Shown in pieces: positions 37,029 to 61,359 of a stretch of DNA of 64,000 bases (positions within the stretch are counted from its first letter, which is position 1; each line of letters opens with the position of its first letter). This stretch comes from Pseudomonadota bacterium. Its GTDB lineage: Bacteria > Pseudomonadota > Gammaproteobacteria > Acidiferrobacterales > UBA6901. The stretch covers positions 93,328 through 157,327 of the forward strand of contig JAJYEX010000002.1 of the NCBI GenBank assembly GCA_021785515.1, given 5' to 3'. Under the pieces are notes generated by a model, which saw only the letters and a list, made by a program, of their open reading frames with translations, had not been told where the DNA came from and did not search any database. A program made the position numbers and the translations under genes.

Positions 37029-39620
37029 ATGAAAAGTACCGAGATCCGCGAGCTTTTTCTGCGTTTCTTCGAACGTCACGGCCATACCGTCGTGGCCTCG
37101 AGCTCGCTCGTGCCGGGCAACGATCCGACCTTGCTGTTCACCAACGCCGGCATGGTGCAGTTCAAGGATGTTTTTCTCGGGCTGGAAAAGCGTTCCTATG
37201 TGCGGGCGGCAAGCGCGCAACGCTGCGTGCGCGCGGGCGGCAAGCACAACGATCTTGAAAACGTCGGGTATACCGCGCGCCATCATACCTTTTTTGAGAT
37301 GTTGGGGAATTTCAGTTTCGGTGACTATTTCAAGCGCGAGGCCATCCGGTTCGCCTGGGAGTTCCTGACGGAGGAGCTGCATCTGCCGCCAGAGCGTCTG
37401 TGGGTGACCGTGTATGTCGATGACGCTGAAGCAGCGGACATATGGCTCAAGGAGATAAAGGTCGACCCTGCCAGGTTTGCGCGCATAAGCGGCACCGACA
37501 ATTTCTGGTCGATGGGCGATACTGGGCCGTGCGGACCCTGCTCCGAGATCTTCTATGATCATGGCCCCAAAGTGGCCGGGGGGCCGCCCGGTAGCGCGGA
37601 TGCAGACGGGGACCGCTACATCGAAATTTGGAACCTGGTCTTCATGCAGTACAACCGCGACGCGCATGGAACGCTGCACAGCCTGCCGAAACCATCTGTG
37701 GATACCGGCATGGGGCTGGAGCGCATCAGCGCTGTCATACAGGGAGTGCACAGCAATTACGATATAGATCTGTTCCAGGGCCTCATCCGTGACGCGGCGA
37801 AAATCGTCAATACGCGCGATTTCGGGGACAAGTCTCTCAATGTTATCGCTGATCATATCCGCTCGTGCGCGTTTCTGATTACCGATGGCGTGATGCCTTC
37901 CAACGAGGGCCGGGGTTACGTCCTGCGCCGCATCATCCGCCGTGCGGTACGCCATGGGCACCGGCTCGGAGCAGAAGGCCCGTTTTTTTACCGGCTGGTG
38001 GAACCTCTGGTTCGGGAGATGGGTCAGGCCTATCCGGAGCTCGGCCGTGCCCGTCGACAGGTGGAGCACGTTCTGCGTCTGGAGGAAGAGCGCTTCGCCG
38101 AGACCCTGGCGCAGGGACTGCGCATCCTCGAAGAGGATCTCGGCGCCCTGAAAACCGATGTCATTCCCGGGGAGACGATTTTCCGGCTCTATGATACCTA
38201 CGGATTTCCGGTGGACCTCACTGGGGACATCGCGCGTGAACGCGGACTCGTGCTCGATCTCGCGGGATTTGAAAAGCAGATGGAAGCGCAGCGGCAGCGC
38301 GCGCGCGAGGCGTCTACGTTCAAGGCCGTCGGAGTCCTTCCTGAAGACGCCGGGGTAGCGGTCGCCGAATTTTCAGGCTATGACACGCTGCACACCGAGT
38401 CCACCGTGATGGCGATCCGCCGCGGCGATGCCCAGGTTGGGGAGCTGGCCGCCGGGGAAGAGGGTGTGGTGTTCCTTGACCGCACTCCCTTCTATGCGGA
38501 GAGCGGTGGCCAGGTCGGTGACCGGGGGGTGTTGTCCGGAGCGGGGCGGTTCCTCGTAGAGGACACGCACAAGGGCTATGGCCATATCGGCCGGCTCGAA
38601 AGCGGTACGTTGCAGGTCGGCGCGCGCGTATCCTGCGACGTGGATCGCGGGCGGCGCCTGGCAACGGCGTTCAATCACTCGGCAACGCATCTGCTTCATG
38701 CGGCCCTCAGAGCCGTGCTGGGATCGCATGTGACGCAGAAGGGATCTCTGGTCGAGCCCGAGCGTCTGCGATTCGATTTCAGTCACAATGAGCCGCTTAC
38801 GCGCGCACAGATCGACGAGATCGAGCGGTTGGTGAACGAAGAGATACGAGCCAACGATTTAGTGGAGACGCGTGTCATGCCGATTGCCAAGGCCATGGAG
38901 TCTGGTGCCATGGCGCTGTTCGGCGAAAAGTACGGCGACGACGTGCGGGTAGTGGGCATGGGCGGGTTTTCAACCGAGCTCTGTGGTGGCACTCACGTGC
39001 GCCGAACGGGCGATATCGGGTTCTTCAAGATCCTTGCCGAAGGCGGCGTGGCCGCCGGCGTGCGGCGTGTCGAAGCGGTTACCGGTCAGGGAGCGCTGGA
39101 CCATGTCCGCGATATCGAGCAGAAGCTTGCCAGAGTTGCGGATCTGGTACGCGGGAACCGGGATGATGTCGAGCGCAAGGTGGAACAGCTGAGTGGCCGG
39201 CTGCGGCAGATGGAGAAAGAACTCGACGTGTTCCGCGGACGCCTCGCCGTCAGTCAGGGCGACGCTCTGGCTGACTCGGTGCGCGAGGTCAAGGGCATCA
39301 AGGTCGTTGCCACACGCATGGACGGGGCTGACAGCAAGGCGCTGCGCGAAGCGATGGACCGGCTTAAGGACAAGCTTGGCAGTGCCGCAATCGTGCTGGC
39401 TTCGGTGCAGGATGGCAACAAGGTCACCCTGATCTCGGGCGTCACCAAGGATCTGCTGGGCCGGCTGCACGCCGGAGAAATCGTCAATGAAGTCGCGAGT
39501 CGTGTGGGCGGGAAGGGCGGTGGCCGGCCGGATATGGCCCAGGCCGGCGGTAACAACCCTGCGGCACTGGACGCGGCGCTAGCCCAGGTTCACGATTGGA
39601 TTGCACGTAAACTTCAGTAA
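37029..39620 (+). CDS. alaS: alanine--tRNA ligase
   Basis: 863 aa; [23 protein letters not shown], editing-domain HSATHLLH, C-terminal DHHA1 domain. Confidence 0.97.
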
Positions 39621-39773
39621 ACCCCCTGTCCCCGGGGCGGGTGAAAAACACCGCCGCATGTGTTTACTCTTTAGGCAAAACAGGGTTTAATCTGCGGTTT
39701 TTTTCCAGGGCCATGGTTGCGGGCGGCTAGCGTCCGAATGGTAGCCGGCGCAGGGTGGTGTTGTGAAGAAGAT

Positions 39774-41003
39774 ATGGCATTGATCGTTCAGAAATACGGT
39801 GGCACCTCAGTGGGGAGCCCTGAGCGCATTCAGTCGGTCGCCGAGAAGGTGGCGCGTCGGCGCGCATCGGGAGACGACATGGTGGTCGTGGTCTCGGCGA
39901 TGAGCGGGGAAACAGACCGCCTGCTTGCGCTCGGCCGAAGCGTTCATCCGCAGGCTCCGGCACGCGAGCTCGACGTGCTGATTTCGACTGGCGAGCAGGT
40001 GACTATCGCCCTTCTCAGTATGGCGCTTGAGCGCTGCGGGTGTGCGGCCCGGTCCTACACCGGCAGTCAGGTGCATATTCGCACGGATAATGTGCACGGA
40101 AAGGCCCGAATTCTGGGTATTGACGACGTTCGCGTTCGTGAGGATCTCGGCAAGGGCAGGGTGGTGGTGGTTGCAGGTTTCCAGGGTGTCGATGAGGACG
40201 GAAATATAACGACGTTGGGCCGCGGGGGATCGGACACCACGGCGGTGGCCATGGCTGCGGCGCTCAAGGCCGATGAGTGTCAGATCTACACCGATGTCGA
40301 TGGAGTCTATACCACTGATCCGCGCATCGTTCCGAACGCGCGCAGGCTGGACCGTATTACCGCGGAAGAAATGCTGGAAATGGCCAGTCTTGGCGCCAAG
40401 GTTCTCCAGATCCGGTCCGTGGAGTTTGCGGGCAAGTATCGGGTGCCGCTGCGGGTGCTGTCGTCATTCGAAGAGGGGCCTGGAACGCTAATTACGTACG
40501 AGGAGAACGAGATGGAAGCCCCGCTGATTTCGGGCATCGCCTTCAGTCGCGATGAGGCCAAGGTAACGGTCCGGGGCGTCCCGGATAAACCGGGCATCGC
40601 TGCACGTATCTTGGGCGATATCGGCGGCGCCAGCATCAACGTCGACATGATTGTACAGAACGTTGGCGCGGATGGGACCACGGATTTCACATTTACCGTC
40701 CATCGCGGAGACTACCGCCAGGCTTTAGAAATACTCAAAAAGACCGCTGGACAATTAGCGGCACGCGAAGTGACGGGGGACGACAAGATCGCCAAGATAT
40801 CCGTGGTAGGCGTCGGCATGCGTTCCCATGCCGGGATTGCGGGTACCATGTTCAAGGCCCTGGCGGAAGAGGGTATCAATATCCAGATGATTTCCACGTC
40901 GGAGATCAAAATCTCCGTGGTGGTAGACGAAAAATACCTGGAATTGGGGGTACGAACGTTACATGCTGCGTTCGAACTCGATAAACAGCCGGCCGTCGGA
41001 TAG
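39774..41003 (+). CDS. lysC: aspartate kinase
   Basis: ATG 39774 gives MALIVQKYGGTSVG; VVVSAM, TLGRGGSDTTA, tandem C-terminal ACT domains. ORF-track start 39717 adds 19 atypical residues. Confidence 0.92.
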   Translation: MALIVQKYGGTSVGSPERIQSVAEKVARRRASGDDMVVVVSAMSGETDRLLALGRSVHPQAPARELDVLISTGEQVTIALLSMALERCGCAARSYTGSQVHIRTDNVHGKARILGIDDVRVREDLGKGRVVVVAGFQGVDEDGNITTLGRGGSDTTAVAMAAALKADECQIYTDVDGVYTTDPRIVPNARRLDRITAEEMLEMASLGAKVLQIRSVEFAGKYRVPLRVLSSFEEGPGTLITYEENEMEAPLISGIAFSRDEAKVTVRGVPDKPGIAARILGDIGGASINVDMIVQNVGADGTTDFTFTVHRGDYRQALEILKKTAGQLAAREVTGDDKIAKISVVGVGMRSHAGIAGTMFKALAEEGINIQMISTSEIKISVVVDEKYLELGVRTLHAAFELDKQPAVG

Positions 41004-41308
41004 ATAAGTTCAGGCGGTTGGCACGGAAGCTGCATGCTAGGCGGATAAGCCCAAAACCGGTGTTGGCGGCGAATGGACGGAAAGGCGATTCCCGCTGCCG
41101 GCCTGCCGGCTGTGGGAATGGTTCCAGAGTATAGGTGTTTCAGGGTTATCTCGGCCGCCAATCATGGAAGGTTGCCATGGCGGCATCAAACAAGGCTCAA
41201 AAACAACAGGGATGGTTGAGCGGTCGATCTGGATCGATAGGCCGTAACGTTTGCTTGCGGGTTGATTCTTTGGATAGCTACTGAACGAATTGTAAGGAGC
41301 GCAGCGCA

Positions 41309-41524
41309 ATGCTGATTCTAACCAGAAGGATAGGCGAAACTCTGAATATCGGTGACGACGTTCAGGTTACGGTACTTGGGATCAAGGGAAATCAGGTGCG
41401 TCTCGGGGTGAACGCACCGAAGGAAATTCCAGTGCATCGCGAAGAAATCTATGAGCGGATCAAGAAGGAAAAGGAGACTGGTGTCGTAGTGGTGCAGGAC
41501 ACCGATAAGCAGCATACGGGTTGA
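41309..41524 (+). CDS. csrA: carbon storage regulator CsrA
   Basis: [48 protein letters not shown]; SD AAGGAG 8 nt upstream. Confidence 0.96.
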
Positions 41525-41596
41525 TTGTGCCTGATGGCAGTGGGGTATTCCTTTACCCGGTTGCCGGGTCCATGTATCCTTGCGACCGCAACTAAA

Positions 41597-41690
41597 GGAG
41601 AGATGGCCGAGCTGGTCGAAGGCGCTCCCCTGCTAAGGGAGTATGGGGTCAAAAGCCCCATCGAGGGTTCGAATCCCTCTCTCTCCGCCA
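41597..41690 (+). tRNA. tRNA-Ser (anticodon GCT)
   Basis: GGAGAGATGGCCGAG...CTGCTAA anticodon loop, long variable arm, GGTTCGAATCC T-loop, TCTCTCCGCCA 3' end. Confidence 0.9.
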
Positions 41691-41878
41691 GTTCCTGCAA
41701 GTGGCGGACCTGAGTGGGTCACGTGCAGGACGGAGGAAATTTTCACCCGCCAGATTTAGGTGCAAAACTGAGCCTCAGTTGAACGGTATTTGAGGTGAGC
41801 CATCGGGTCTCGGCGTACGGAATGGCTCTAGTTCAGGTGGTAGGCACAGACCCAAGTCGGTAATTGTATTGTTGTTTG

Positions 41879-41907
41879 TTGACACGTCTGTGTGCCCTCC
41901 GGATAAT
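41879..41907 (+). promoter_or_regulatory. candidate sigma70 promoter for tRNA-Arg
   Basis: TTGACA (41879-41884), 17-nt spacer, GATAAT (41902-41907), 25 nt upstream of the tRNA 5' end. Confidence 0.55.
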
Positions 41908-41932
41908 TCGGCACCCTGTGTATTCCTAAATT

Positions 41933-42009
41933 GCGCCCGTAGCTCAGCTGGATAGAGTACCTGGCTACGAACCAGGTGGTCGGGAGTTCGAATCTCTCCG
42001 GGCGCGCCA
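41933..42009 (+). tRNA. tRNA-Arg (anticodon ACG)
   Basis: GCGCCCGTAGCTCAGCTGGATAGAGTACCTGGCTACGAACCAGGTGGTCGGGAGTTCGAATCTCTCCGGGCGCGCCA; standard 77-nt cloverleaf; csrA-tRNA-Ser-tRNA-Arg order as in E. coli (csrA-serV-argV). Confidence 0.93.
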
Positions 42010-42102
42010 GTTTTTCAAACACTTACATCTCTTCGGCGACACAGAAACCAAGCGGTTGTGCCAGATTTGTGTCAGGCTTCCTGCCCCTGATGCGTTACCA
42101 AC
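41968..42102 (+). repeat. direct repeat copy 1 (tRNA-Arg 3' portion plus 93 nt downstream, including the integrase 3' end)
   Basis: About 90% identical by eye to 45575-45709. The tRNA-derived part recurs a third time at 47202-47246. Confidence 0.85.
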
Positions 42103-42431
42103 TCCAGTGTCCGTATTATCGGTACGTCCACTGTATGCGGCCGGGCGATCGTTTCCGCGTGTTTGGCCAGATGTTCGGCAGAGAGGTGTGCGTACTTGCG
42201 CACCGTCTCGGATGACTCCCAGCCATCCAGCTCCTGTAACGCACTCCGGGGTGTTCCGGCCTGAACGTGCCACGAGGCCCAGGTGTGGCTCAGGTCGTAC
42301 CAGCGGAAATTATCGATGCCGGCACGCTTGAGCGCTTTGCGCCAGGCGTGGTTGTTTGCCTTACCGACACGTTTGCCTTGCCGGAAATCTCTAGCTCCCA
42401 CTGCTCGGTTTGTGGGGAGGAGGTCAGCCAC
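42072..42431 (-). pseudogene. tyrosine recombinase (phage-type integrase), C-terminal fragment only, catalytic residues mutated
   Basis: NHAWRKALKRAGIDNFRWYDLSHTWASWHVQAGTP..LQELDGWES.ETVRKYAHL aligns to the integrase catalytic box. It has YDLS where the family has HDLR (His-II and Arg-II lost). About 200 N-terminal residues are missing. Confidence 0.8.
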
Positions 42432-42500
42432 GTGGACGATCCAATAGTCTTAAGTGGCATGGCTTAGGCCTGTTCACGTGACGGCATCAATCGGGTGCTC

Positions 42501-43442
42501 TCAGGGCTGGTGCCCAAGCCGTACTGCCATGTTCGGGTGACGGTCGGCCAGCGCTTTCAGACGTTGCAGGTTTTCCAGGTTGCGGTCATTGTCGTCGGTG
42601 TAGGTGCCAGGCTCCACGCCGTGCTCCCAGCCCCAGCGGGTGTGCGAGGTGTCTCCGCTGAGCAGCACCGGGCCATGCGGGGTGCGCACTGCATAAGCCA
42701 CGCTGCCCGGTGTGTGACCGGGTACGCTGATGGCGAATACGGAGCCGTCGCCGAATACATCCAGCACCCCGTCGAATTTACCCTGCGGGTCCGGCCGAAA
42801 GCGCCATTCGCGCAGCGGCTTTCCTGCCAGCAGATTGTTGGTGCTGCGTCTGGTAAAGATGTATTTGAAGCTGCGCTCTGCGGTGGCTTCCGGCCAGCTA
42901 ATATACAGGGGTGTGCCGGCGGGAACATCCGGTGTGCCTGCGATGTGGTCCAGGTGCAGGTGGGTAAAGAAAACACCTGCCAGCGGACCGTTCAACTCCT
43001 GCAAAATCTCGACGGTGCTTTTCCGGATCCTGAGCTTGTTTGTGTGCATCACCGCCCGCACTAACCAGCCCACGCCTGAGCCGGTCGGATCGTCCACCAG
43101 CTTTCTCGAGATGCCGGTGTCCACGAGAAAGTTGCCGTATTTCGGATGCTTCAGTACGTGGACATATACCTGTATCGGCTCCTCGCGATCTTGCAGTCCG
43201 GCTGCAATCGCGGCGGGCCGCTTTAGATTGACCATGCCCGCGAGTGATACCGACCAGTCGGCGCTGACCACGGTCTCCAGCGTCACCGGTCCGGGTTGGT
43301 CGAGCAGGCGTTCCATTTCAGCACTGCCCGAGAGCCTGCCCATGGCAGCGTCCGTCACCGGATGGCCAGTCACCGCGCAGCCTCGTAGCAGCAGGGTGGG
43401 CGCGGACACAAATGCATCAAAAAGGGCGTACGTGGTTTTCAT
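42501..43442 (-). CDS. MBL-fold metallo-hydrolase
   Basis: ATG 43442 (MKTTYALF) preceded by GAGGA; HLHLDHIAG metal motif, VPGHTPGS, downstream SGDT..H. Confidence 0.82.
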   Translation of the reverse strand: MKTTYALFDAFVSAPTLLLRGCAVTGHPVTDAAMGRLSGSAEMERLLDQPGPVTLETVVSADWSVSLAGMVNLKRPAAIAAGLQDREEPIQVYVHVLKHPKYGNFLVDTGISRKLVDDPTGSGVGWLVRAVMHTNKLRIRKSTVEILQELNGPLAGVFFTHLHLDHIAGTPDVPAGTPLYISWPEATAERSFKYIFTRRSTNNLLAGKPLREWRFRPDPQGKFDGVLDVFGDGSVFAISVPGHTPGSVAYAVRTPHGPVLLSGDTSHTRWGWEHGVEPGTYTDDNDRNLENLQRLKALADRHPNMAVRLGHQP

Positions 43443-43561
43443 GCAATCCTCGATACGGTTCGTTTGGTTTGTTGATACTCTCCCATGCAAAATCAGTTGG
43501 CAATTGACAAAATGCTGATAGCATCATCCATTTTCGGATGGATTGCGGAGGAGAGGTGAGC

Positions 43562-44491
43562 ATGAACCTGAAATGGGATGACCTGCGGCTGTTCCTTGCG
43601 GTACACGAAGCGGGCAGCCTGAGCGGCGCGGCGCGGGCGCTGAGGCTCGGCCAGCCCACACTGAGCCGGCGCATTGCTGAACTGGAAGAGGCAGTGGGAG
43701 AACCGCTATTCGAGCGGCAAAGCCATGGCACCACGCTCACCGCCGTCGGGTTGAAGCTGCTGCCCGCAGCCCGAGGCATGGCTGAATGGGCCAGCGAAGC
43801 GGCGCTGAACCTGGGCAGCCAAACCCACCTTCCCGAAGGCAAGGTACGCATCGCAACACCTCCCGGGGTGGCCTACCATCTGGTGGCCCCGCTTGCGGCA
43901 AGAATCAGGCAGCGACACCCGCAGTTGCGCATCGAGGTGCTAGCCAGCATAGAGCCCCTCAATCTCGGGCGCGGCGAGGCAGACATGGCATTGCGCACCG
44001 TGCCTCCCGGCGACGAGGACACGGTATGTGTGGACCAAGTTTCCACCCGCATGCGTGTATTCGTGAGCAAGGATTACGCCGCGCGTCTACCTGCAGATGC
44101 CAGCCTCGCCGACCTCGACTGGATTGGTTGGGCCGCTCCTTATCACGAGCTGCGCACCAGTCTCGATCTGCAGACGCTTATTCCTGGCGTTATGCCTGCA
44201 TTTTCGTCGGATGATTTTATTGTACAGCTCGCGGCGTGCAGGGCAGGTGTGGGCGCAATGTTGTTACCGCAAGCAATGCACCTCTACCTTGGCCCCCATG
44301 AGCAGGCGTGCTGGCAGGAACTCCCTTTCGACCTTGGTCCGGATTCAGTGTGGACTCTCTACCTCGTCTGCCACAAGCGTTACCGCCACCTGCCCAAGGT
44401 ACGGCTAGCGATAGACTTTATCTCGCGCGAATTTGCCCGCATGCGGCAGGCAGGTGAGAGTTATGGCCAAATGTTGTGTACGCCGACATGA
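43562..44491 (+). CDS. LysR-family transcriptional regulator
   Basis: ATG 43562 after GGAGGAGAGG; LRLFLAVHEAGSLSGAARALRLGQPTLSRRIAELE HTH; divergent from the MBL hydrolase. Confidence 0.88.
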   Translation: MNLKWDDLRLFLAVHEAGSLSGAARALRLGQPTLSRRIAELEEAVGEPLFERQSHGTTLTAVGLKLLPAARGMAEWASEAALNLGSQTHLPEGKVRIATPPGVAYHLVAPLAARIRQRHPQLRIEVLASIEPLNLGRGEADMALRTVPPGDEDTVCVDQVSTRMRVFVSKDYAARLPADASLADLDWIGWAAPYHELRTSLDLQTLIPGVMPAFSSDDFIVQLAACRAGVGAMLLPQAMHLYLGPHEQACWQELPFDLGPDSVWTLYLVCHKRYRHLPKVRLAIDFISREFARMRQAGESYGQMLCTPT

Positions 44492-44670
44492 TCAGGCAGC
44501 GATCTCTGACAGCCTTGCTTGGGTACGGCGACTCCGTCTTTGAACACCACTCCGGTGATGACCTGGGCGATGCGTTCGGATCCCTTCATGTGGCACCAGC
44601 GGTTCTCGGCGCTTTTCACCAGTTTGAAGACCATCGAGAGGATGCTTGTTGATTTGCACGGAACTATGAC
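44492..44670 (-). pseudogene. IS256-family (mutator-type) transposase, extreme C-terminal remnant with a frameshift
   Basis: Reverse strand reads ..SILSMVFKLVKSAENRWCHMKGSERIAQVITGVVFKDGVAV, then shifts frame to ..EIAA-stop. This matches the conserved C-terminus of IS256-type transposases. Nothing upstream of it remains. Confidence 0.65.
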
Positions 44671-44752
44671 CTGTCCCTGGCGAATTCGTGGTCATGCCGC
44701 CACCGGTGTCTGAAGCAGACCATGGCAATGTGCCATCCAGTCAAACCGAGGG
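44671..44752 (+). repeat. solo copy A of the rve-IS terminal sequence
   Basis: CTGTCCCTGGCGAATTCGTGGTCATGCCGCCACCGGTGTCTGAAGCAGACCATGGCAATGTGCC.. is about 90% identical to the end of the defective IS at 45710-45791. Confidence 0.8.
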
Positions 44753-44777
44753 TTACGCTGACGGACACCCCTGGGCT

Positions 44778-45161
44778 CTAACCTTTTTCCAGCAATTTGA
44801 GCCCGACCGTCCTTTCGAAAATCCTGAAATCCCGGTCGCGCGTGACCAACGTTGCGCGATGGTCGAGGCAGCATTGCGCGATCAGCGTATCAGCCAGCTT
44901 AGCCTTATGGCCGCCGCGCAAAATCTTCGCCCTTAATAATCCCGCGCGCTCCCAGAATCCTTCCGACAGGGGAAGGACCGGGAGCTGTAAGATGACCTCC
45001 CGCACATTTTTGTCCAGCGATGGGTCGCTCAATACTTCTGTGACCGTGATCGGAGTGACGACGCCAACCTGATCGGCGAATGCCTGATCAATAATGCTGA
45101 CATCTTCACCCTCTGCGCCTTCGAGGTAAGCGATCAACGAGCTGGTATCAAGACAAAGCAT
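44778..45161 (-). CDS. vapC: PIN-domain toxin VapC
   Basis: MLCLDTSSLIAYL (first acidic residue), ..VTEVL.., ADTLIAQCCLDH.ATLVTRDRDF; start overlaps the vapB stop (TGATG). Confidence 0.88.
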   Translation of the reverse strand: MLCLDTSSLIAYLEGAEGEDVSIIDQAFADQVGVVTPITVTEVLSDPSLDKNVREVILQLPVLPLSEGFWERAGLLRAKILRGGHKAKLADTLIAQCCLDHRATLVTRDRDFRIFERTVGLKLLEKG

Positions 45162-45358
45162 CAGTCTTCGCGCAGCTCAGCCAGTGTGACGTGGAATTTC
45201 ACCTTGCCTTTGAGTTGCCGGAGCTTGGCGTAGGCCCCGCTGGCGGCCATCAATTCCAGTCCACGGCGAATGGTCGGCGTAATACCCTGGCCGGAGGCCG
45301 CAGTAGCGCGCTTCAACAGCTCTTCCGGAACCTGGATCGTAAGTTTCTTCAAGGCCAT
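45161..45358 (-). CDS. vapB: VapB-type antitoxin (65 aa)
   Basis: Small ORF immediately upstream of and overlapping vapC; MALKKLTIQVPEELLKR is ribbon-helix-helix-like. Confidence 0.75.
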   Translation of the reverse strand: MALKKLTIQVPEELLKRATAASGQGITPTIRRGLELMAASGAYAKLRQLKGKVKFHVTLAELRED

Positions 45359-45406
45359 TGAGCAAACCCCCAGAAAAAGTTATGCGCTAAAATAACACCA
45401 TAAAGC

Positions 45407-45428
45407 ATACCATATTCAAATATGGTAT
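45407..45428. promoter_or_regulatory. perfect palindrome upstream of vapBC (candidate VapB operator)
   Basis: ATACCATAT-TCAA-ATATGGTAT, 9-nt arms, about 50 nt upstream of the vapB start in an AT-rich patch. Confidence 0.6.
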
Positions 45429-45574
45429 TTGGTGGTGGTACCGGCCACTCTGCCAATTTTTTGCCAATGGGATCCCGGGCAATGCAGATTTATGCAGGTT
45501 TTTACAGGACTGGAAAACCGTTGGGCGTCGCAAAGCATTGATTTAATTAACAGTGTAGGGCATCAGTCGTCCAA

Positions 45575-45709
45575 CGAACCAGGCAGGTCAGAAGTTCGAA
45601 TCTCTCCGGGCGCGCCAGTTTTTCAAACACTTACATTTCTTCGCTGACACAAGAACCAAGCGGTCGTGCCAGATTTGTGTCACGCTTCCTGCTCCTGATG
45701 CGCTACCAC
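45575..45709 (+). repeat. direct repeat copy 2: tRNA-Arg 3' fragment, spacer and integrase 3' end (att scar)
   Basis: CGAACCAGGCAGGTCAGAAGTTCGAATCTCTCCGGGCGCGCCA followed by GTTTTTCAAACACTTACAT..CCTGATGCGCTACCAC. No 5' half of a tRNA, so it is not a gene. Confidence 0.85.
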
Positions 45710-46278
45710 CTGTCCCTGGCGAATTCATAGTCACGCTGCCACCGGTGTCTGAAACAGCCCATGGCAATGTGCCACCCAGTCAAACGCGAGGGCGTATTGT
45801 CCAAAAATTGCATCGCCAAGATTCACGCTGCCTGACGGTAGTAATAATGAGCATTCCGCCGAGGCGCTCGCGCCGGTGGACGGTGTCACGGCACAGAGGA
45901 GGGGCCACGGTAATGGGTTTCAGCAGGTGATTTTCCATCCCTTGGTGATTTCGTTCGGTATGATAGTGGGCCATGTACTCTTTAACGGCGTGCCGCAGTG
46001 AGGCTTCCCCCAGGAATATCATTCAGTTCAGGCACTCCTCTTTAATCGAGCGCACGAACCGATCGGCGTAGGCGTTGAGATTGGGGGATCGTGGGGGCAG
46101 ACGGATGATTTTGATGCCCTTGTCCTCGATCAGGCGGCGGAAGGCAGCGGAATATTTTGGCATCCCGATCCAGGGTGAGAATTCGTTTTCCGTTGAGGGG
46201 GAACCCATCCGTCGCGTCGGTGAGGTTGCGCGCCACCTGCATCATCCAGCGTTCATTCAATTCGCCAGGGAGATCGTC
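45710..46278 (-). mobile_element. internally deleted, defective rve-type (IS481/IS3-superfamily-like) insertion sequence with both terminal inverted repeats
   Basis: The outer end CTGTCCCTGGCGAATTC (45710) and the inverted copy GAATTCGCCAGGGAGAT (46262-46278) bracket only the C-terminal half of the transposase. The 46262-46278 end is fused directly to codon region ..[11 protein letters not shown]. Confidence 0.7.
45823..46260 (-). pseudogene. DDE (rve) transposase, C-terminal half with one in-frame TGA and at least two frameshifts
   Basis: [24 protein letters not shown].. / ..[61 protein letters not shown]. The family terminus HYYYRQAA-stop is readable only in a shifted frame, ending near 45823. 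Confidence 0.75.
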
Positions 46279-46305
46279 TTGTTGTGGTTGTTTCCTTAAT
46301 GTATA

Positions 46306-46334
46306 TTGACAATTATCTATTGTCAGATTAGGGT
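46306..46334 (+). promoter_or_regulatory. candidate higBA promoter with overlapping inverted repeat
   Basis: TTGACA (46306-46311), 17-nt spacer, TAGGGT (46329-46334). Inverted repeat TGACAAT-TATCT-ATTGTCA (46307-46325) spans the -35/spacer. Confidence 0.5.
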
Positions 46335-46360
46335 AAGCAAAGGCAGGGAGGGCAGGCGCT

Positions 46361-46639
46361 TTGATTCAGAGCTTCCGGCACAAGGGACTGAAACGGCTCT
46401 ATGAGAAGGACATCGCCAAGGGCCTCTCTGCGGATATAGAGCCGAAGATTGCGCGGGTACTGGCCCGCCTCGACGTAGCGGCTAGACCGGAGATGATGAA
46501 CCTGCCGGGTTTGAACCTGCATCCCCTGAAAGGAGAGCTGAGAGGATTCTGGGCTGTGTGGGTCACGGGCAACTGGCGGATCATCTTCCGCTTCGATGGA
46601 AGCCACGCATGTGATGTTGATCTGGTCGATTATCACTGA
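46361..46639 (+). CDS. higB: HigB toxin (RelE/ParE superfamily, plasmid-maintenance killer type)
   Basis: TTG start; [16 protein letters not shown]....I....KI.R.L..L.......M..PG..LH.LKG.L.G.W.V.V.GNWRI.F.F....A..VDLVDYH. Confidence 0.88.
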
Positions 46640-46658
46640 CCGGGATGGAGGTAGTGAA

Positions 46659-46976
46659 ATGACGATGAAAAACCCGCCGCACCCCGGATTGTCGGTGCGC
46701 CATGACTGCCTGGAGCCGCTCAGGCTCTCCGTTACGAAAGGGGCGGAGGTTCTCGGCGTAAAGCGCCAGACGCTCAACAACCTTGTGAACGGCAAGGCGG
46801 GAATTTCACCAGAAATGGCGATCCGCCTCGATAAGGCCTTCGGCGGCACGGCCGAAGGCTGGCTTGCGCTCCAGACAGCGTTCGATCTGGCGCAAGCACG
46901 CAAGAATGAGAAGTCGATCATCGTAAAACGGTACAAAGGCGCCTCTGGGGCAGAACATCAAGGCGCTTGGAAATAA
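46659..46976 (+). CDS. higA: HigA antitoxin (XRE-family HTH)
   Basis: ATG 46659 after GGAGGT; NPPHPGL.....[42 protein letters not shown]. Confidence 0.88.
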
Positions 46977-47201
46977 ATCACGATGTGGGTGGCTAATTTC
47001 TAGTTGAGGTCAAGCGAAAATACAAATCAACAGTCGGGACTTATCTACTAGTTGCCGTAGTTTCCGGAGTAGTGGCCATCATTTTCTTGCGGGACTTTTG
47101 CGGGGATTAGTTGTGCATGGTTCTGCAAAGTCCTGCAAAATGCGCAACGGGCGTCCGGTGTTGGTTGAAAAAAAACAACCGGTTACCAATTCAAGAACTA
47201 A

Positions 47202-47246
47202 CTACGAACCAGGTGGTCGGGAGTTCGAATCTCTCCGGGCGTGCCA
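47202..47246 (+). repeat. direct repeat copy 3: tRNA-Arg anticodon-to-3'-end fragment (att scar)
   Basis: CTACGAACCAGGTGGTCGGGAGTTCGAATCTCTCCGGGCGTGCCA; one mismatch to 41965-42009; no 5' half. Confidence 0.85.
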
Positions 47247-47291
47247 TATAATCAATAGCGTAGCCACATTATCGCCCGCAGAGAATGGGGC

Positions 47292-47969
47292 ATGGAGTCA
47301 CTATCAAATCCGGTCGAGATGGTGCGCAGATCGAAACTCCCATCCGGCCGGGATCGCCGCCTTGTGAGTGACGAGGAATCCCGCCTTGTCGCCGCCGCGC
47401 AGAATTATGGCGGTGAGATAGTGCGCATCATCCCTTGGGCCATTGAGACGGCCATGCGCCGTGGCGAGATCGCAGCCATGCGCTGGGATCACGTGAACCG
47501 AACGGTGCGCGTGCTGCTCATTTTAAAGTTTAAGACCGACACGCTCCGACGGGTACCCTTGTCATTAAAGGTTCTGGCAGCCTTGGATGAGTAACCCCAA
47601 CGCATCGATGGGCGGGTGCGGTCTGTCGAGCCGGAGTCCATGAGCCAGGCGTTTGAGCGCATTGGTGATCGTGCCCGGGAAGCATACGAGAGCGAATGCA
47701 GGAGGAGCGGCGTCAAGCCGGATGAGAAGATGTTCAAGGATCTGCGGTTCCACGATCTGCGGCACGAAGCAACCTCGCGGCTCTTCGAGAGAGGACGGAA
47801 CCCCATGGAGGTCTCGAGCATCACTGGCCACAAGACGCTTCAGATGTTAAAACAGGCACGGTGTTCGAGATCGTTCCATAGCGCAAAGAGATTTAATGGC
47901 GGTGATAACTTTCCGGATTTGATCCACAAGGACAGGACCCAGATGCATCGTCAGACGCAACTTGAGTAG
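47292..47969 (+). pseudogene. tyrosine recombinase (island integrase): N-terminally truncated, in-frame TAA at 47595, C-terminus scrambled before the catalytic Tyr
   Basis: AIETAMRRGEIAAMRWDHV....R.L.I..KT...R.VPLS, then a stop. It continues in the same frame with ..SQAFERI.., [35 protein letters not shown], after which similarity ends (no RYTHL). Confidence 0.8.
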
Positions 47970-48053
47970 GTGAATGAATCGATCGGCCTGGATGGTTCAG
48001 TATTCGATGCAAAGGAATGAAATCATGGAAACATTTTAGCGTGCTAATCAACA
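47939..48053 (+). repeat. 115-nt direct repeat, left copy (integrase 3' end plus downstream sequence)
   Basis: Aligns without gaps to 57998-58112 with about 20 mismatches by eye (roughly 83% identity). Confidence 0.8.
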
Positions 48054-48119
48054 CAAAGTTCTTACGTGAGGCAACGATGCGATTTGCTTAGGTTTTGGAT
48101 GAGGCAATTCGCAAGCAGC

Positions 48120-48149
48120 TTGACAGTCAATCGGAATCAAAGATATTAT
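48120..48149 (+). promoter_or_regulatory. candidate sigma70 promoter for the copper-efflux operon
   Basis: TTGACA (48120-48125), 18-nt spacer, TATTAT (48144-48149); a near-consensus pair in a GC-rich genome, 42 nt upstream of ATG 48191. Confidence 0.55.
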
Positions 48150-48190
48150 CCGCGCATGGCGCATGTTCCTCACCCATCATAGACTGCCAT

Positions 48191-48607
48191 ATGACCTCGG
48201 CGCTTGCCATGCTGCGGCGGTTACGGCACAACCCGATTGTCCTGTTCGGCGGTTTGGCGCTTGTTTTCGTTATTTTGCTCCAGGTCTGTTTCACACCCAA
48301 AGCGGCAGCGTCTGCAGCATCGATGTCGGCCATGACCGCAGACTGCGGGCCTGCCGGTGTGCCTCAGGGCCATCAAGTGCCTGCGTGCTGCCAGCCTGGA
48401 CATTTAGTGCTTTGCGCCGGTCAATCCCTCGCCATGGACACCAGCCCGGGATATGCGTCGAGCAGCGCGCTGGCAATTCTTCCCGTTACTGCGGTCCGCA
48501 TTGTTCGTTTACGGCAGCAGAGTAGGGGTCGGTCACCCGAACCCGCTGATTTTCGAACTCCTTCCTCCCAAGCGTTGTATCTGCGCCACGGCCGTTTCCT
48601 GATTTAA
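48191..48607 (+). CDS. membrane-anchored Cys/His/Met-rich protein in the CzcI / DUF2946 position (family assignment tentative)
   Basis: ATG 48191 gives MTSALAMLRRLRHNPIVLFGGLALVFVILLQVCF (one TM). It continues SMSAMTADCGPAGVPQGHQVPACCQPGHLVLC. First gene of the cus cluster. Start and reality of this ORF are less certain than for its neighbours. Confidence 0.45.
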   Translation: MTSALAMLRRLRHNPIVLFGGLALVFVILLQVCFTPKAAASAASMSAMTADCGPAGVPQGHQVPACCQPGHLVLCAGQSLAMDTSPGYASSSALAILPVTAVRIVRLRQQSRGRSPEPADFRTPSSQALYLRHGRFLI

Positions 48608-48674
48608 CCGATCCTCATTCGTAACCGTGCGCGCCACGCACCTGCGTGGCAGCTTCGCTGCGTGAGGATTTCAC

Positions 48675-49979
48675 ATGTCGTCTCGATACGTTTGTCGTAC
48701 GGTTGTGCTCGTGGCCGCACTGGCCACGAGTGTTCCGGTGTGGGCGCGGATCCTGCGGTCTTCCGGTCTCATTCCCTCGCCACTAACCCTGCACAATGCG
48801 CTACGGCTGGCGCTTGCTCGCTCCCCGGCACTGGCTCAGGCACGCGCCGAGATCGAGGCGGGCCAAAGTGAGGAGAAATATCGCAGCCAGCTACCGGATC
48901 CCGTGCTTACGCTGGGTGCTCAGAACCTTCCCGCGGATACGCTCGCGTTGAATCAAAGCGGCATGTCCATGCTGGGCATCGGTCTGTCCCAGAAATTCCC
49001 GCCGCCCGGAAAGCTCGGATTGATCCACCGGCAACTGGAACGGGACACCGCTGTGCTGCGCTACCGCATGCAGAATCTCAAGGCCGGGGTCGTGCGCGCG
49101 GTACGCCGCGCTTGGCTGGCGCTTTATTACGACGACCACGCGCTCCACATCCTCCATGAAAACCAGGCATTGTATCGCCGGATTGAACAGGTTGCGCTTT
49201 CCCGCTACCGGGCAGGTCGAGGACAAGCCGCCGACGTTCTCAAAGCACGGCTGGCGGCTGAGGACCTGATCGACCAAGAAGACGCGTGGCGCTCCAAACG
49301 TCGCCAGGCGCAAAGCCGCCTGGCTCAATTGCTCGATCTGCCGTCGTTTGACGGCATCACTGTCGCACAGACATTCCCCCGCTTGCCTGCGATTCCGCCG
49401 CTACAAACATTGCTGACAAATCTGAGTCACCATCCCGTCGTAGTCGCCCAGGACAACGTCATCCGTGCCGCACAATTCGATGTTGCCGCAGCGCGCCGGG
49501 ATTTTTATCCGTCCTACGAGATCAGTGCCGGATATGCACATCGTGCTACCCCCGGGGTTCGCGCGCCCAACCTAGTATCCGTTGGCGTAAGCCTGAGCCT
49601 GCCGCTATTCCCCGGCGAGCGCCAGGACGCTCGCCTGCACCGCCGGGAGGCGCAAACACAGGCCGCGCGCGATCAGCGCGACGACCTGCTGTTGAGCCTC
49701 CGCCGGCAGGCACAATCACGCTATGCGGAGTATGACGCCCTCACGCGGCGCGTCCAGTTACTGCAGCAAAGGTTGGTACCGGATGCCAGAGAGACGGTGA
49801 CAGTCAGCCTCTCGGCCTATCGCGCGGGCGCGCTGTCATTGACCGAGGTACTGCACGCACAGCGCGCCGTACTCAACCAGACGCTTCGACTGTGGGCCTT
49901 AAAGGCCGACCTGGCAAGCGTTATTGCCGACCTGGACTACCTGGCAACATCTACCGAGGGGCATTTCCATGCGTACTGA
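48675..49979 (+). CDS. cusC: outer-membrane efflux protein (TolC family, CusC/CzcC type)
   Basis: Signal peptide, LTLHNALRLALARSPAL.QA, two OEP repeats; 434 aa. Confidence 0.88.
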   Translation: MSSRYVCRTVVLVAALATSVPVWARILRSSGLIPSPLTLHNALRLALARSPALAQARAEIEAGQSEEKYRSQLPDPVLTLGAQNLPADTLALNQSGMSMLGIGLSQKFPPPGKLGLIHRQLERDTAVLRYRMQNLKAGVVRAVRRAWLALYYDDHALHILHENQALYRRIEQVALSRYRAGRGQAADVLKARLAAEDLIDQEDAWRSKRRQAQSRLAQLLDLPSFDGITVAQTFPRLPAIPPLQTLLTNLSHHPVVVAQDNVIRAAQFDVAAARRDFYPSYEISAGYAHRATPGVRAPNLVSVGVSLSLPLFPGERQDARLHRREAQTQAARDQRDDLLLSLRRQAQSRYAEYDALTRRVQLLQQRLVPDARETVTVSLSAYRAGALSLTEVLHAQRAVLNQTLRLWALKADLASVIADLDYLATSTEGHFHAY

Positions 49980-54485: not shown

Positions 54486-54865
54486 TGAAAAGTTATTATG
54501 CTGTCGCCACCTTGATTTGCACGATTACCGGTTCCCTGGCCGCAAGCGCCGCTACAGTGCGCATGCAAGGCATGGGGAACATGCCCATGGGAGGTAAGGG
54601 CGGCCCCAACACAACAAGTACGTCGAGCACAGTAAACCGTTACATGGCGCATGGACGGATCAACCACGTGAACAAGACCGCGGGGGAGGTCAACATCACG
54701 CATGGGCCTATCTCGGCGCTGGGCTGGCCGGGGATGACTATGAGCTTCCCAGTGCTGGACAAGACGGCATTGGCCCGCCTCAGGCCTGGAGAGCCAGTGG
54801 ACTTTGATCTGATCCGCAGGCCCAACGGCCAATATGCGATCAGCGGCATCGCTCCGGCCGACTAG
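54485..54865 (+). CDS. cusF: periplasmic Cu(I)/Ag(I) chaperone CusF
   Basis: TGATG overlap with cusA; signal peptide; VNITHGPISALGWPGMTMSF carries the CusF His/Trp/Met/Met ligand pattern; extra N-terminal MQGMGNMPMGG Met-rich stretch. Confidence 0.88.
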   Translation: MKSYYAVATLICTITGSLAASAATVRMQGMGNMPMGGKGGPNTTSTSSTVNRYMAHGRINHVNKTAGEVNITHGPISALGWPGMTMSFPVLDKTALARLRPGEPVDFDLIRRPNGQYAISGIAPAD

Positions 54866-56068: not shown

Positions 56069-56112
56069 ATGGCGAATTCGCAGTCACGCGGTCACCAGCG
56101 GCTGAAACAACG
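56069..56112 (+). repeat. solo copy C of the rve-IS terminal sequence
   Basis: TGGCGAATTCGCAGTCACGCGGTCACCAGCGGCTGAAACAAC compared with TGGCGAATTCATAGTCACGCTGCCACCGGTGTCTGAAACAGC at 45717. Confidence 0.6.
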
Positions 56113-57330: not shown

Positions 57331-57336
57331 GGATCC

Positions 57337-57788: not shown

Positions 57789-57997
57789 CCGACAATGGGA
57801 TAGACAGCCGAATCGTTCTGACGACTCAAAATGGACAAGCGGATTACCATAGCCGCGACCTTGCTTGGGTTTTCTGCGTATTCCGGCCCAATCCTGCCAC
57901 TCCGGTAAGGGGCCAGTTGAGGCCTATCAACGCGGGTTAACCAGCCGGTTGTTGAATTTCACCGATATATGAACCCACGATTGCGCGGGTTATGGAT

Positions 57998-61208: not shown

Positions 61209-61359
61209 TCCGATATAGCGGACAGCTGCCGATTGACCCATTGTATAGTCAGGGAACCGAAACAGCAGCTGCTATGACGATCGTTCGCAAGGCAATGCGG
61301 CCGGCCTGGCCATGCACACAACCGCGGTACTGGTGAGCTGGGCGGTTTTTGAGTATCAC

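What the first reader, a model, noticed from the sequence alone, without database searches (positions are those of the whole stretch)
41933..47246. tRNA-Arg(ACG) followed by two further copies of its 3' end: tandem integration scars
The intact tRNA (41933-42009) is followed by partial copies at 45575-45617 and 47202-47246. Both start in the anticodon region and run to CCA. Copy 2 differs at several T-arm positions, as expected for an attP-derived sequence from another host. It also drags along 93 nt of downstream sequence identical in order to 42010-42102, including the last codons of the integrase. This defines at least two stacked segments. Segment 1 (42010-45574) carries an integrase remnant, an MBL hydrolase, LysR, an IS256 scar and vapBC. 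Segment 2 (45618-47201) carries a defective IS and higBA. A third, integrase-led segment lies to the right.
Basis: seen in the sequence. Interest (0 to 1): 0.6.

Follow-up and report, generated by a model that had tools for sequence, protein, structure and literature searches.

The report
Stacked mobile-element scars at tRNA-Arg
Two related mobile elements once inserted one after the other into the same arginine tRNA gene, each leaving a 45-base copy of the tRNA's 3' end, and both have since decayed to integrase stubs, insertion-sequence debris and toxin-antitoxin genes; this is a clean but ordinary example of a well-known process.

Summary
The intact tRNA-Arg(ACG) lies at 41933-42009. Its last 43-45 nt, from the first base of the anticodon loop to CCA, recur co-oriented at 45575-45617 and 47202-47246. 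The 5' half occurs only once. Copy 2 is followed by 94 nt that are about 89% identical to 42010-42103 and include the last 9-10 codons of a convergent tyrosine integrase.

Outside evidence supports tandem site-specific integration. In 44 of 80 metagenome loci, this integrase clade sits convergent to a tRNA gene. The same 45-nt fragment bounds complete 3.6- and 5.3-kb elements (L161, L145), and a 3.8-kb one at tRNA-Pro has 47 nt. A soil contig carries four such fragments. Burkholderia phage phiE094 has the equivalent attP. Contig L084 joins a homologue of segment 2's right arm to a homologue of its left arm across a single core.

Both elements are dead. One integrase keeps 102 codons with HDLRH changed to YDLSH; the other keeps 9-10.

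Two side-claims fail:
- The "third integrase" is an internal fragment of an unrelated plasmid-type recombinase that starts 25 nt after copy 3.
- Copy 2's T-stem changes are uncompensated, so they look like decay rather than another host's tRNA.

This is a new member of a known kind, of low to moderate interest.

The parts
41597..41690 (+). tRNA-Ser(GCT), upstream neighbour in the conserved alaS-lysC-csrA-tRNA-Ser-tRNA-Arg locus
41879..41907 (+). sigma-70-like promoter match (TTGACA-17-GATAAT, 11 of 12) upstream of tRNA-Arg; consensus match only
41933..42009 (+). intact tRNA-Arg(ACG). This is attL of the array: host 5' part joined to a 3' part inferred to come from the adjacent element
   Evidence: tRNA; the origin of the 3' part is inferred from the standard integration model
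41965..42009 (+). core repeat copy 1 (tRNA positions 33-77, anticodon loop to CCA)
42010..42071 (+). P' arm of element 1: 62 nt between the CCA and the integrase stop codon. It contains the inverted repeat GACACAGAAAC...GATTTGTGTC, which is kept in copy 2 and in L002
42072..42380 (-). integrase A remnant: the last ~102 codons of a ~350-aa tyrosine integrase, convergent with the tRNA. HDLRH is mutated to YDLSH and GGW to DGW. Homology ends at 42380
42501..43490 (-). metallo-beta-lactamase-fold protein (313 aa in the public gene call); host-like G+C of about 0.605
43538..44491 (+). LysR-family regulator (public gene call 43562-44491)
44457..44647 (-). scar of an IS256/Mutator-family transposase C-terminus
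   Evidence: no direct Pfam match
44664..44752 (.). solo copy of an ~85-nt repeat (D3), read as the terminal region of the rve-type IS whose transposase remnant lies at 45795-46290
44778..45358 (-). vapBC-type toxin-antitoxin pair: PIN toxin at 44778-45161 and a 65-aa partner at 45161-45358 with no Pfam match
45359..45572 (+). P arm (right end) of element 1. It holds an IHF-consensus-like CAAAGCATTGATT at 45531-45543. A 28-nt block (45522-45549) is shared with the arm next to the core in L133
   Evidence: motif spacing compared
45575..45617 (+). core repeat copy 2: attR of element 1 and attL-derived end of element 2. It has 3 substitutions and a 1-nt insertion, and its T stem is broken
45618..45711 (+). 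P' arm of element 2 plus the last 9-10 codons of its integrase (stop at 45680-45682); about 89% identical to 42010-42103
45703..45792 (.). second copy of repeat D3 (IS end), abutting the integrase stub; this marks where the integrase of element 2 was cut
45795..46290 (-). frameshifted remnant of an rve-type DDE transposase (C-terminal third)
46361..46976 (+). higBA-type toxin-antitoxin pair: HigB-like toxin at 46361-46639 and HTH antitoxin at 46659-46976
46977..47201 (+). P arm (right end) of element 2. The block 47087-47158 is about 86% identical to the arm beside the 45-nt core in L084 (z = 34 against shuffles)
47202..47246 (+). core repeat copy 3 (attR of element 2); 44 of 45 bases match the gene, with C to T in the acceptor strand
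47247..47270 (+). short flank (TATAATCAATAGCGTAGCCACATT) resembling the sequence just 3' of tRNA-Arg in other loci (L148, L017, L055, L005 fragment). It is either native B' flank or a further P' arm stub; undecided
47271..47852 (+). unrelated integrase fragment (residues ~89-267 of a ~374-aa plasmid-type site-specific integrase) with an in-frame stop at 47592-47594. It is not part of the tRNA-targeting clade

Best explanation
The tRNA-Arg(ACG) gene downstream of csrA and tRNA-Ser was used twice as an attachment site by two related integrative elements, about 10% diverged at their integrase ends.

Mechanism:
- Each element carried an attP. This comprised a P arm, a 45-nt copy of the tRNA from the anticodon loop to CCA, a P' arm, and then the 3' end of a convergent tyrosine integrase gene.
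- Strand exchange in the anticodon loop rebuilt the tRNA from the element's own copy.
- The previous 3' half was pushed to the far end of the element.
- Two rounds give: tRNA | element 1 (42010-45574) | fragment | element 2 (45618-47201) | fragment.

Decay afterwards:
- Insertion sequences and deletions removed almost everything. The excisionase and any replication or virion genes are gone.
- Integrase 1 keeps 102 mutated codons. Integrase 2 keeps 9-10 codons.
- What survives is the att arms, a toxin-antitoxin pair next to each P arm, and unrelated DNA (MBL-fold gene, LysR, IS scars).
- The array can no longer move by itself. It could at most be recombined in trans by an incoming relative.

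Shown versus inferred:
- Shown: the repeats, the integrase remnants and their clade, and the homology of both arms to att regions elsewhere.
- Inferred: the order of the two integrations, the crossover position within the loop, the nature of the parent elements, and the retention of the toxin-antitoxin pairs through addiction. Small Rep-Xis-Int elements or filamentous prophages are favoured as parents over P2-like phages.
For: Repeats:
- There are three co-oriented copies of tRNA positions 33-77 and only one 5' half, with 0 expected by chance.
- 94 nt of P' arm plus integrase end are duplicated at about 89% identity.

Integrase remnant:
- It is 68% identical to the intact 353-aa integrase of L055, which is convergent with tRNA-Arg(ACG).

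The integrase clade in other sequences:
- In 44 of 80 metagenome loci with relatives of the remnant, an intact tRNA gene lies on the opposite strand just past the integrase. Fourteen of these are tRNA-Arg(ACG), several with tRNA-Ser beside it.
- Complete elements are bounded by tRNA plus a 45-47-nt fragment: L161 at 3.6 kb, L145 at 5.3 kb and L141 at 3.8 kb.
- These have the order Rep, Xis, Int, tRNA.
- Soil contig L153 has four fragments with truncated integrases.
- Acidiferrobacter contig L005 has tRNA-Arg, then 2 kb, then a fragment.
- Phage phiE094 (integrase 57% identical to L055's) has a 45-nt tRNA-Arg(CCG) 3' half beside its convergent integrase.

Arms:
- L084 joins a homologue of 47087-47158 to a P' arm and integrase of this clade across one core.
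- A toxin-antitoxin pair lies next to the P arm in the window (twice), in L084 and in L145.

Other support:
- G+C is 0.53-0.56 across 44.5-48.5 kb, against about 0.60-0.63 upstream.
- The array is identical in several independent assemblies.
- The literature describes this process, including tandem arrays and stacked degenerate remnants.
Against: - No relative with an empty site and long flanks close enough to show the original junction was found. Contigs of the nearest relatives are short.
- Neither segment keeps an intact integrase, an excisionase or a replication gene (one search found none in the window). The parent element type therefore cannot be read from the window.
- The interior of segment 1 (MBL-fold gene and LysR) has host-like G+C, and how it got there is unexplained.
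- Copy 3 should have been displaced no later than copy 2, yet it is less diverged: 1 change against 4.
- The sequence beyond copy 3 is not recognisable native chromosome. After 25 nt it is an unrelated integrase fragment.
- The duplicated block of copy 2 ends exactly at an IS end that is itself duplicated. So IS-mediated rearrangement has certainly reshaped the array.
Confidence: 0.85

Rival explanations
1. The partial copies are decayed members of a tandem tRNA-Arg(ACG) gene array, as in E. coli argVYZQ or the 2-4 copy arrays of Pseudomonas. They are not att duplications.
For: Tandem arrays of 2-4 tRNA-Arg(ACG) genes occur after tRNA-Ser in more distant relatives such as Pseudomonas, Marinomonas and Nitrincola.
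Against: - Those arrays have full-length genes spaced about 25-200 nt apart. Here the spacings are 3608 and 1629 nt.
- No 5' half exists anywhere else in the window.
- Both copies start at the anticodon loop. That is the same breakpoint seen in unrelated contigs and in a phage attP.
- Integrase ends and homologous att arms flank the copies.
- Among the nearest relatives, the three whose contigs extend past the gene (L005, L006, L009) show one intact tRNA-Arg each.
Confidence: 0.02
2. Only one element ever integrated. Copy 2 with its 94-nt tail arose by a segmental, IS-mediated duplication of the tRNA-proximal end, followed by deletion.
For: - The duplicated block ends precisely at an IS end (45703-45711).
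- That IS end is itself present twice more: fully at 44664-44752 and partly at 56070-56109.
- IS scars are abundant in the segment.
Against: - The two blocks differ by about 10%, while the whole array is 100% identical between assemblies. A duplication would therefore have to be old.
- A duplication would not be expected to start exactly at the anticodon loop.
- The sequence upstream of copy 2 shares a 28-nt block, including an IHF-like site at the family's usual distance, with an independent integrase-associated core.
- A separate P arm homologous to L084 precedes copy 3.
Confidence: 0.07
3. The arrangement is an artefact of metagenome assembly, with chimeric joins at the repeated tRNA sequence.
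For: - The window matches metagenome contigs only.
- Two contigs from one sample switch partners at tRNA-Ser. L002 is 100% identical upstream of it and then diverges. L169 is 80% identical upstream and 100% downstream.
Against: - The repeats are 45 nt, or 138 nt at 90% identity. That is shorter or more diverged than the k = 141 implied by the k141_ contig names.
- The same array occurs in five contigs longer than 200 kb from different samples. Short contigs L170-L172 span copy 2, and L003 spans csrA through the integrase remnant.
- The suspicious switches are at tRNA-Ser, outside the array.
Confidence: 0.03

Closest known systems
Tandem tDNA islands as defined by Islander (Hudson, Lau and Williams 2015, PMC4383910)
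   Same: - An intact tRNA gene plus co-oriented displaced 3' fragments mark the island ends.
- The attP is centred on the anticodon loop. That database lists 2083 such islands.
- Several elements are stacked at one tDNA. The database lists 125 tandems of two or more and 4 of three or more.
   Different: Islander accepts a tandem only when each member has its own integrase gene. Here both integrases are stubs (102 and 9-10 codons), so the array would probably be missed or merged.
Stacked and degenerate tycheposons in Prochlorococcus islands (bioRxiv 10.1101/2020.12.28.424599)
   Same: - Successive integrations at one tRNA push older elements outward.
- Elements are separated only by a partial tRNA.
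- Fragmented integrases and extra partial tRNAs remain as remnants.
   Different: The host is different (an Acidiferrobacteraceae-like gammaproteobacterium). The integrase clade and cargo are not shown to be related. No active copy is present here.
Burkholderia phage phiE094 and relatives (Peduoviridae) integrase/attP module
   Same: - The integrase belongs to the same clade: 57% identical to L055's integrase, which is 68% identical to the window remnant.
- The integrase is convergent with a 45-nt tRNA-Arg 3' half that starts in the anticodon loop and lies about 60 nt past the stop codon.
   Different: - phiE094 is a functional 38-kb P2-like phage that targets tRNA-Arg(CCG), not ACG.
- The window keeps no phage structural genes.
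- The closer relatives of the window's remnant sit in much smaller elements.
Small Rep-Xis-Int integrative elements and integrase-bearing filamentous prophages (L161, L145, L141; IMG/VR L174, L175). Their module order resembles repSA-xis-int-attP of Streptomyces pSAM2 (the pSAM2 comparison is from my own knowledge)
   Same: - Same integrase clade.
- Same 45-47-nt core.
- A toxin-antitoxin pair at the P-arm end in L145.
- Sizes of 3.6-5.3 kb, comparable with the 3.6-kb and 1.6-kb segments.
   Different: No Rep or Xis homologue remains in the window. Descent from this type is therefore inferred, not shown.
Cis-mobilisable elements (CIMEs) left by accretion and decay of ICESt-type elements in Streptococcus thermophilus
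   Same: Segments are flanked by att sites but lack their own recombination genes. They arise by tandem accretion followed by deletion, and could in principle be moved by a related incoming element.
   Different: Trans-mobilisation is untested here. The host, the integrase family and the tRNA target differ.

Membership tests
tDNA-integrated element array (Islander criteria) | Intact tRNA gene plus co-oriented displaced fragment(s) of its 3' part on the same replicon | tested here: met
tDNA-integrated element array (Islander criteria) | Fragment starts at a recognised crossover sublocation (anticodon loop) | tested here: met
   Copies start at the first base of the anticodon loop or at the anticodon. 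The same start is seen in L084, L145, L161, L153 and phiE094.
tDNA-integrated element array (Islander criteria) | Each member of a tandem has its own integrase gene | tested here: inconclusive
   Only remnants are present: 102 codons in segment 1 and 9-10 codons in segment 2.
tDNA-integrated element array (Islander criteria) | Empty site in close relatives, or detectable excision products | not testable with these tools
   Contigs of the nearest relatives are too short. Distant relatives show the tRNA followed by a terminator hairpin. No read-level data are available.
phiE094/L055-type tRNA-targeting tyrosine integrase clade | Sequence homology of the catalytic domain | tested here: met
   Pfam PF00589 at E = 1.4e-10. 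68% identity to L055 over 72 aa. 55-77% identity to 80 metagenome loci.
phiE094/L055-type tRNA-targeting tyrosine integrase clade | Complete protein with an intact catalytic H-x-x-R...H...Y signature | tested here: not met
   About 250 N-terminal codons are missing. HDLRH is changed to YDLSH.
phiE094/L055-type tRNA-targeting tyrosine integrase clade | Gene convergent with the target tRNA, with the stop codon within ~100 nt of the tRNA 3' end | tested here: met
   The stop codon is 63 nt after the CCA. 44 of 80 relatives are arranged the same way.
Rep-Xis-Int mini-element / integrase-bearing inovirus-like prophage | Rolling-circle Rep and an HTH_17 excisionase immediately upstream of the integrase | tested here: not met
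   tblastn with the Rep and Xis proteins of L161 and L145 finds nothing in the window.
Rep-Xis-Int mini-element / integrase-bearing inovirus-like prophage | Toxin-antitoxin pair beside the P arm, and compact size | tested here: met
   vapBC and higBA lie next to the two P arms. The same placement is seen in L145 and L084.
Tandem tRNA-Arg gene array (argVYZQ type) | Full-length copies, or copies retaining 5' halves, separated by short spacers | tested here: not met
Cis-mobilisable element (CIME) | Flanked by att sites and lacking functional recombination genes | tested here: met
Cis-mobilisable element (CIME) | Excision or transfer when a related element supplies integrase and excisionase | not testable with these tools
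   This needs an experiment.

The most novel reading that the evidence does not exclude
The two segments may be fossils of a widespread, essentially undescribed class of very small (3.6-5.3 kb) integrative replicons with these features:
- An inovirus-type rolling-circle Rep, an excisionase and a convergent integrase.
- Cargo that is often a toxin-antitoxin pair placed beside the P arm.
- Integration into the anticodon loop of many different tRNA genes (Arg, Lys, Phe, Thr, Met, Asn, Pro).

On this reading, these elements repeatedly colonise the same tRNA. After decay, the addictive toxin-antitoxin pairs and the att arms are what remains. They would then seed larger genomic islands such as the metal-resistance mosaic to the right of the array.
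Probability: 0.3. Interest if true: 0.45.

Novelty: new member of a known kind. Interest (0 to 1): 0.25.

Why it matters
- It documents, in an uncultured Acidiferrobacteraceae-like bacterium, how a tRNA gene accumulates layers of dead mobile DNA. It also shows which pieces survive: att arms and toxin-antitoxin pairs.
- It is a worked case that automatic island finders would miss, because they require an intact integrase in each member.
- Partial tRNA copies like these are also a known source of tRNA mis-annotation.
- The comparative data incidentally outline a clade of tRNA-targeting integrases shared by P2-like phages, filamentous prophages and mini-elements. That clade may deserve its own study.
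- The finding does not change any concept.

Tried and rejected
- Tandem tRNA array remnants: rejected.
- Third integrase as leader of a third tRNA-integrated element: rejected. It is an internal fragment of another family.
- Copy 2 as a functional tRNA half from another host: rejected, because the T-stem changes are uncompensated.
- L002 as a strain with a different occupant of the site: withdrawn. L002 and L169, from the same sample, switch partners at tRNA-Ser and each ends 0.4-2.5 kb beyond it. They are most likely reciprocal chimeric contig tails from a second, related species.
- Search for an empty site in relatives through lysC neighbours: the nearest contigs (L004, L005) are too short.
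- Plasmid-database search with the IS remnant at 45700-46320: no match.
- Direct Pfam scan of the IS256 scar peptide: no match. It was confirmed only through a homologous annotated transposase.
- Rfam scan of 41000-49000: only the two tRNAs, plus one sub-threshold plastid family hit overlapping tRNA-Ser on the opposite strand.
- RNA folding of the three 3' flanks: no structure better than shuffles.
- MBL, LysR, VapBC and HigBA proteins against all fetched loci: no informative synteny.
- Homology between the two P arms of the window: none detectable.

Full report
**1. The observation**

ARAGORN finds three tRNA genes in the window. Two are adjacent: tRNA-Ser(GCT) at 41597-41690 and tRNA-Arg(ACG) at 41933-42009. 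Rfam agrees.

The repeat finder and a three-way alignment show that the 3' part of tRNA-Arg recurs twice more in the same orientation, at 45575-45617 and 47202-47246. A 25-mer from the T arm and acceptor end hits exactly these three places at up to 3 mismatches, with none expected in 100 shuffles. The 32-nt 5' half occurs once.

- Copy 3 starts at the first base of the anticodon loop (CTACGAA) and has one change, C to T in the acceptor strand.
- Copy 2 starts at the anticodon and has three substitutions plus a one-base insertion.
- The stretch after the CCA of copy 2 matches the stretch after the gene. 41967-42103 against 45574-45711 is 89.9% identical over 138 nt.
- This shared tail contains a stop codon and the last 9-10 codons of a minus-strand reading frame.

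**2. Gene content of the two intervals**

Interval 1:
- The frame ending 63 nt after the tRNA (42072-42431, minus strand) matches the C-terminal part of Pfam Phage_integrase.
- Next come a metallo-beta-lactamase-fold protein, a LysR regulator and a PIN toxin with a small upstream partner.
- The 190 nt after LysR match the C-terminus of a Mutator/IS256-family transposase. This was shown only indirectly, through a homologous annotated gene.

Interval 2:
- It holds a frameshifted rve-type transposase remnant.
- It also holds a HigB toxin with an HTH antitoxin.

An ~85-nt sequence directly downstream of that transposase remnant's stop codon (45703-45792) recurs at 44664-44752 and partly at 56070-56109. 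I read it as the end of that IS. At 45703-45711 it abuts the 9-10-codon integrase stub, so the integrase of the second element is cut off at an IS end.

G+C falls to 0.53-0.56 between 44.5 and 48.5 kb, against about 0.60-0.63 upstream. The MBL-LysR stretch is host-like at about 0.605.

**3. Host and locus**

The exact CsrA protein occurs only on metagenome contigs with the same layout. The lysC product is 80-82% identical to Acidiferrobacteraceae genomes.

The locus is the conserved series recA-recX-alaS-lysC-csrA-tRNA-Ser-tRNA-Arg. More distant gammaproteobacteria have 2-4 full tRNA-Arg(ACG) genes in tight tandem at this place. Among the closest relatives, the three whose contigs extend past the gene (L005, L006, L009) show one intact copy each.

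Where the site looks unoccupied in distant relatives, the tRNA is followed at once by a terminator hairpin.

**4. The integrase clade**

A betaproteobacterial contig (L055) has an intact 353-aa integrase convergent with tRNA-Arg(ACG). Its C-terminus is 68% identical to the window remnant.

Against it, the remnant keeps only about 102 codons and has HDLRH changed to YDLSH and GGW to DGW. It is a pseudogene. A short contig from another sample (L003) continues the integrase frame past the window's breakpoint at 42380.

A metagenome scan with the remnant returned 80 loci at 55-77% identity:
- In 44 of them an intact tRNA gene lies on the opposite strand just beyond the integrase.
- Fourteen are tRNA-Arg(ACG), several with tRNA-Ser next to it. 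The rest are Lys, Phe, Thr, Met, Arg(TCG), Asn and Pro.

Searching these loci with the tRNA gave the following:
- The same 45-nt block (positions 33-77) lies next to integrases without a full tRNA in L084 and L150. L092 and L133 have a slightly shorter block (positions 36-77).
- It forms the far boundary of complete elements in L161 (3.6 kb) and L145 (5.3 kb). L141 is a 3.8-kb element at tRNA-Pro with a 47-nt repeat.
- It appears four times in one soil contig (L153) alongside truncated integrases.

The Acidiferrobacter contig L005 has tRNA-Arg, then a 2-kb insert encoding a Fic-domain protein, then a 45-nt fragment.

The clade is also found in temperate phages. L055's integrase is 54-57% identical to those of Burkholderia P2-like phages. 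In phiE094 the region just past the convergent integrase contains CTCCGAAGGCAGGGGTTGCTGGTTCGATCCCAGCCGGGCGCGCCA. That is the 3' 45 nt of a tRNA-Arg(CCG) starting in the anticodon loop.

**5. Both ends of the segments are att arms**

Contig L084 carries the integrase closest to the window's remnant (76%). Read in the window's orientation it shows, in order:
- A TacA/GNAT toxin-antitoxin pair.
- An arm about 86% identical to 47087-47158 (z = 34 against shuffles).
- A single 45-nt core.
- A P' arm and integrase of this clade.

So the right end of segment 2 and a left end of the same type as its own are neighbours around one core elsewhere. This is what an attP, or a junction between stacked relatives, should look like.

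The arm before copy 2 shares a 28-nt block with the arm next to the core in L133 (z = 12.7). This block includes CAAAGCATTGATT, which fits the IHF consensus. Similar TTGAT(T/A)(T/A)A motifs lie 24-28 nt from the core in L161, L145 and L153. The IHF assignment is inference only.

The two P arms of the window are not detectably similar to each other.

**6. What the parent elements were**

In intact relatives the order is Rep, Xis (HTH_17), Int, tRNA:
- The excisionase is present upstream of the integrase in more than 50 of the 80 loci.
- A Rep_trans initiator is present in at least 10.
- That Rep is about 33% identical to replication proteins of Ralstonia, Vibrio, Stenotrophomonas and Xanthomonas inoviruses.

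In IMG/VR, the relatives of L084's integrase split into two groups:
- At 53-58% identity they lie on 4-14-kb contigs. Two of these (L174, L175) have Zot, secretin and G2P-type Rep, so they are filamentous prophages. One (L173) has a baseplate gene.
- At 44-47% identity they lie on 36-39-kb contigs.

L145 has a Gp49/HTH toxin-antitoxin pair at its P-arm end. This mirrors vapBC and higBA in the window and TacAT in L084.

The window itself has no Rep or Xis homologue. Descent from a small Rep-Xis-Int element or a filamentous prophage is therefore favoured by size and layout but is not demonstrated.

**7. Mechanism and order of events**

The standard model applies (Islander paper; tycheposon paper). 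The element's copy of the tRNA 3' half restores the gene, and the old 3' half is displaced to the distal end.

- Copy 1 and the 42010-42071 arm come from element 1.
- Copy 2 and its tail come from element 2.
- Copy 3 is either the original host 3' half or belongs to a still older event.

The final order is the same whether element 1 entered the rebuilt tRNA after element 2, or element 2 entered the displaced fragment of element 1. The order of events is therefore not decided.

Copy 2's changes break two T-stem pairs without compensation and add a base to the variable loop. If that copy ever served as the working 3' half, the changes must be later decay. They do not look like a tRNA from another host.

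The 25 nt after copy 3 resemble the 3' flank of tRNA-Arg in several loci. From 47271 onward the sequence aligns with residues 89-267 of a 374-aa plasmid site-specific integrase. It has an in-frame stop and lacks the tyrosine region. That gene does not belong to the tRNA-targeting clade and does not lead a third element.

**8. Reliability of the assembly**

- The array is 100% identical in five contigs longer than 200 kb from different samples and in short contigs spanning copy 2. L003 spans csrA through the integrase remnant.
- Two contigs of one sample behave oddly. L002 equals the window up to the end of tRNA-Ser and then diverges. L169 equals the window from tRNA-Ser onward, but its lysC-csrA is only 79.7% identical. 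Each ends 0.4-2.5 kb beyond the switch.
- The simplest reading is reciprocal chimeric tails from a second species that shares the tRNA-Ser sequence. This lies outside the array.
- If that reading is right, the other species also carries a remnant of the same integrase clade at its tRNA-Arg.

**9. Verdict**

It is a tandem array of two decayed integrative elements at tRNA-Arg(ACG), of a kind well described in the literature. Interest is low to moderate. The only less ordinary aspect is the integrase clade and its mini-elements, which are seen in related loci rather than in the window.

Noticed in passing
window 39042-41690 versus L169 and L002: Contig L169 is 100% identical to the window from tRNA-Ser to 53161, but only 79.7% identical in lysC-csrA. 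L002, from the same sample, is 100% identical upstream and diverges after tRNA-Ser. These are probably reciprocal chimeric contig tails at a shared tRNA-Ser. If real, a region of at least 11.5 kb was exchanged between two species.
   Followed up: partly
window 47935-48053 and 57994-58112: A 119-nt repeat (82% identity). One copy follows the 3' breakpoint of the plasmid-type integrase fragment. The other abuts a truncated Cys/Met PLP-enzyme gene (58107-58757). Its nature is unknown.
   Followed up: no
window 48675-54865: A cusCBA-like RND efflux operon (outer-membrane factor, membrane-fusion protein, 1064-aa pump), with a CusF-like gene after it according to a public gene call. G+C reaches 0.65-0.69, above its surroundings. 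It is probably further island cargo.
   Followed up: no
window 56950-57639, 58107-58757 and 61163-61570: More mobile-element debris lies to the right: a second HigB-family toxin (PF09907) with an unassigned neighbour, a half-length PLP enzyme gene, and a fourth integrase fragment on the minus strand. The mosaic therefore extends to at least about 62 kb, and there is no further tRNA-Arg fragment.
   Followed up: no
L161 400-4067; L145 154-5533; L141 181-4028: Complete mini-elements of 3.6-5.3 kb bounded by a tRNA and a 45-47-nt fragment. L161 and L145 carry an inovirus-type Rep, an excisionase and an integrase, and L145 also has a Gp49/HTH toxin-antitoxin pair. L141's genes were not annotated. 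They are too small to be complete filamentous phages.
   Followed up: partly
L153 2702-15794: A soil metagenome contig with four co-oriented 45-nt tRNA-Arg fragments, truncated integrases and no intact tRNA on the contig. It is a longer decayed array of the same kind.
   Followed up: partly
L005 4682-7319: An Acidiferrobacter MAG has tRNA-Arg, then a 2-kb insert encoding a 463-aa Fic-domain protein with no integrase, then a 45-nt fragment. The fragment is followed at once by a 5'-truncated TnpB-like reading frame, identified by eye only.
   Followed up: partly
window 41309-41524: CsrA is 71 aa long, with a C-terminal extension ([17 protein letters not shown]) beyond the roughly 61 aa I recall as the usual CsrA length.
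   Followed up: no
L002 10800-10850: The integrase remnant in L002 is interrupted by a perfect 34-nt palindrome (GTGCCGCCTATGTCTCCGGAGACATAGGCGGCAC). This may be the end of another small mobile element.
   Followed up: no
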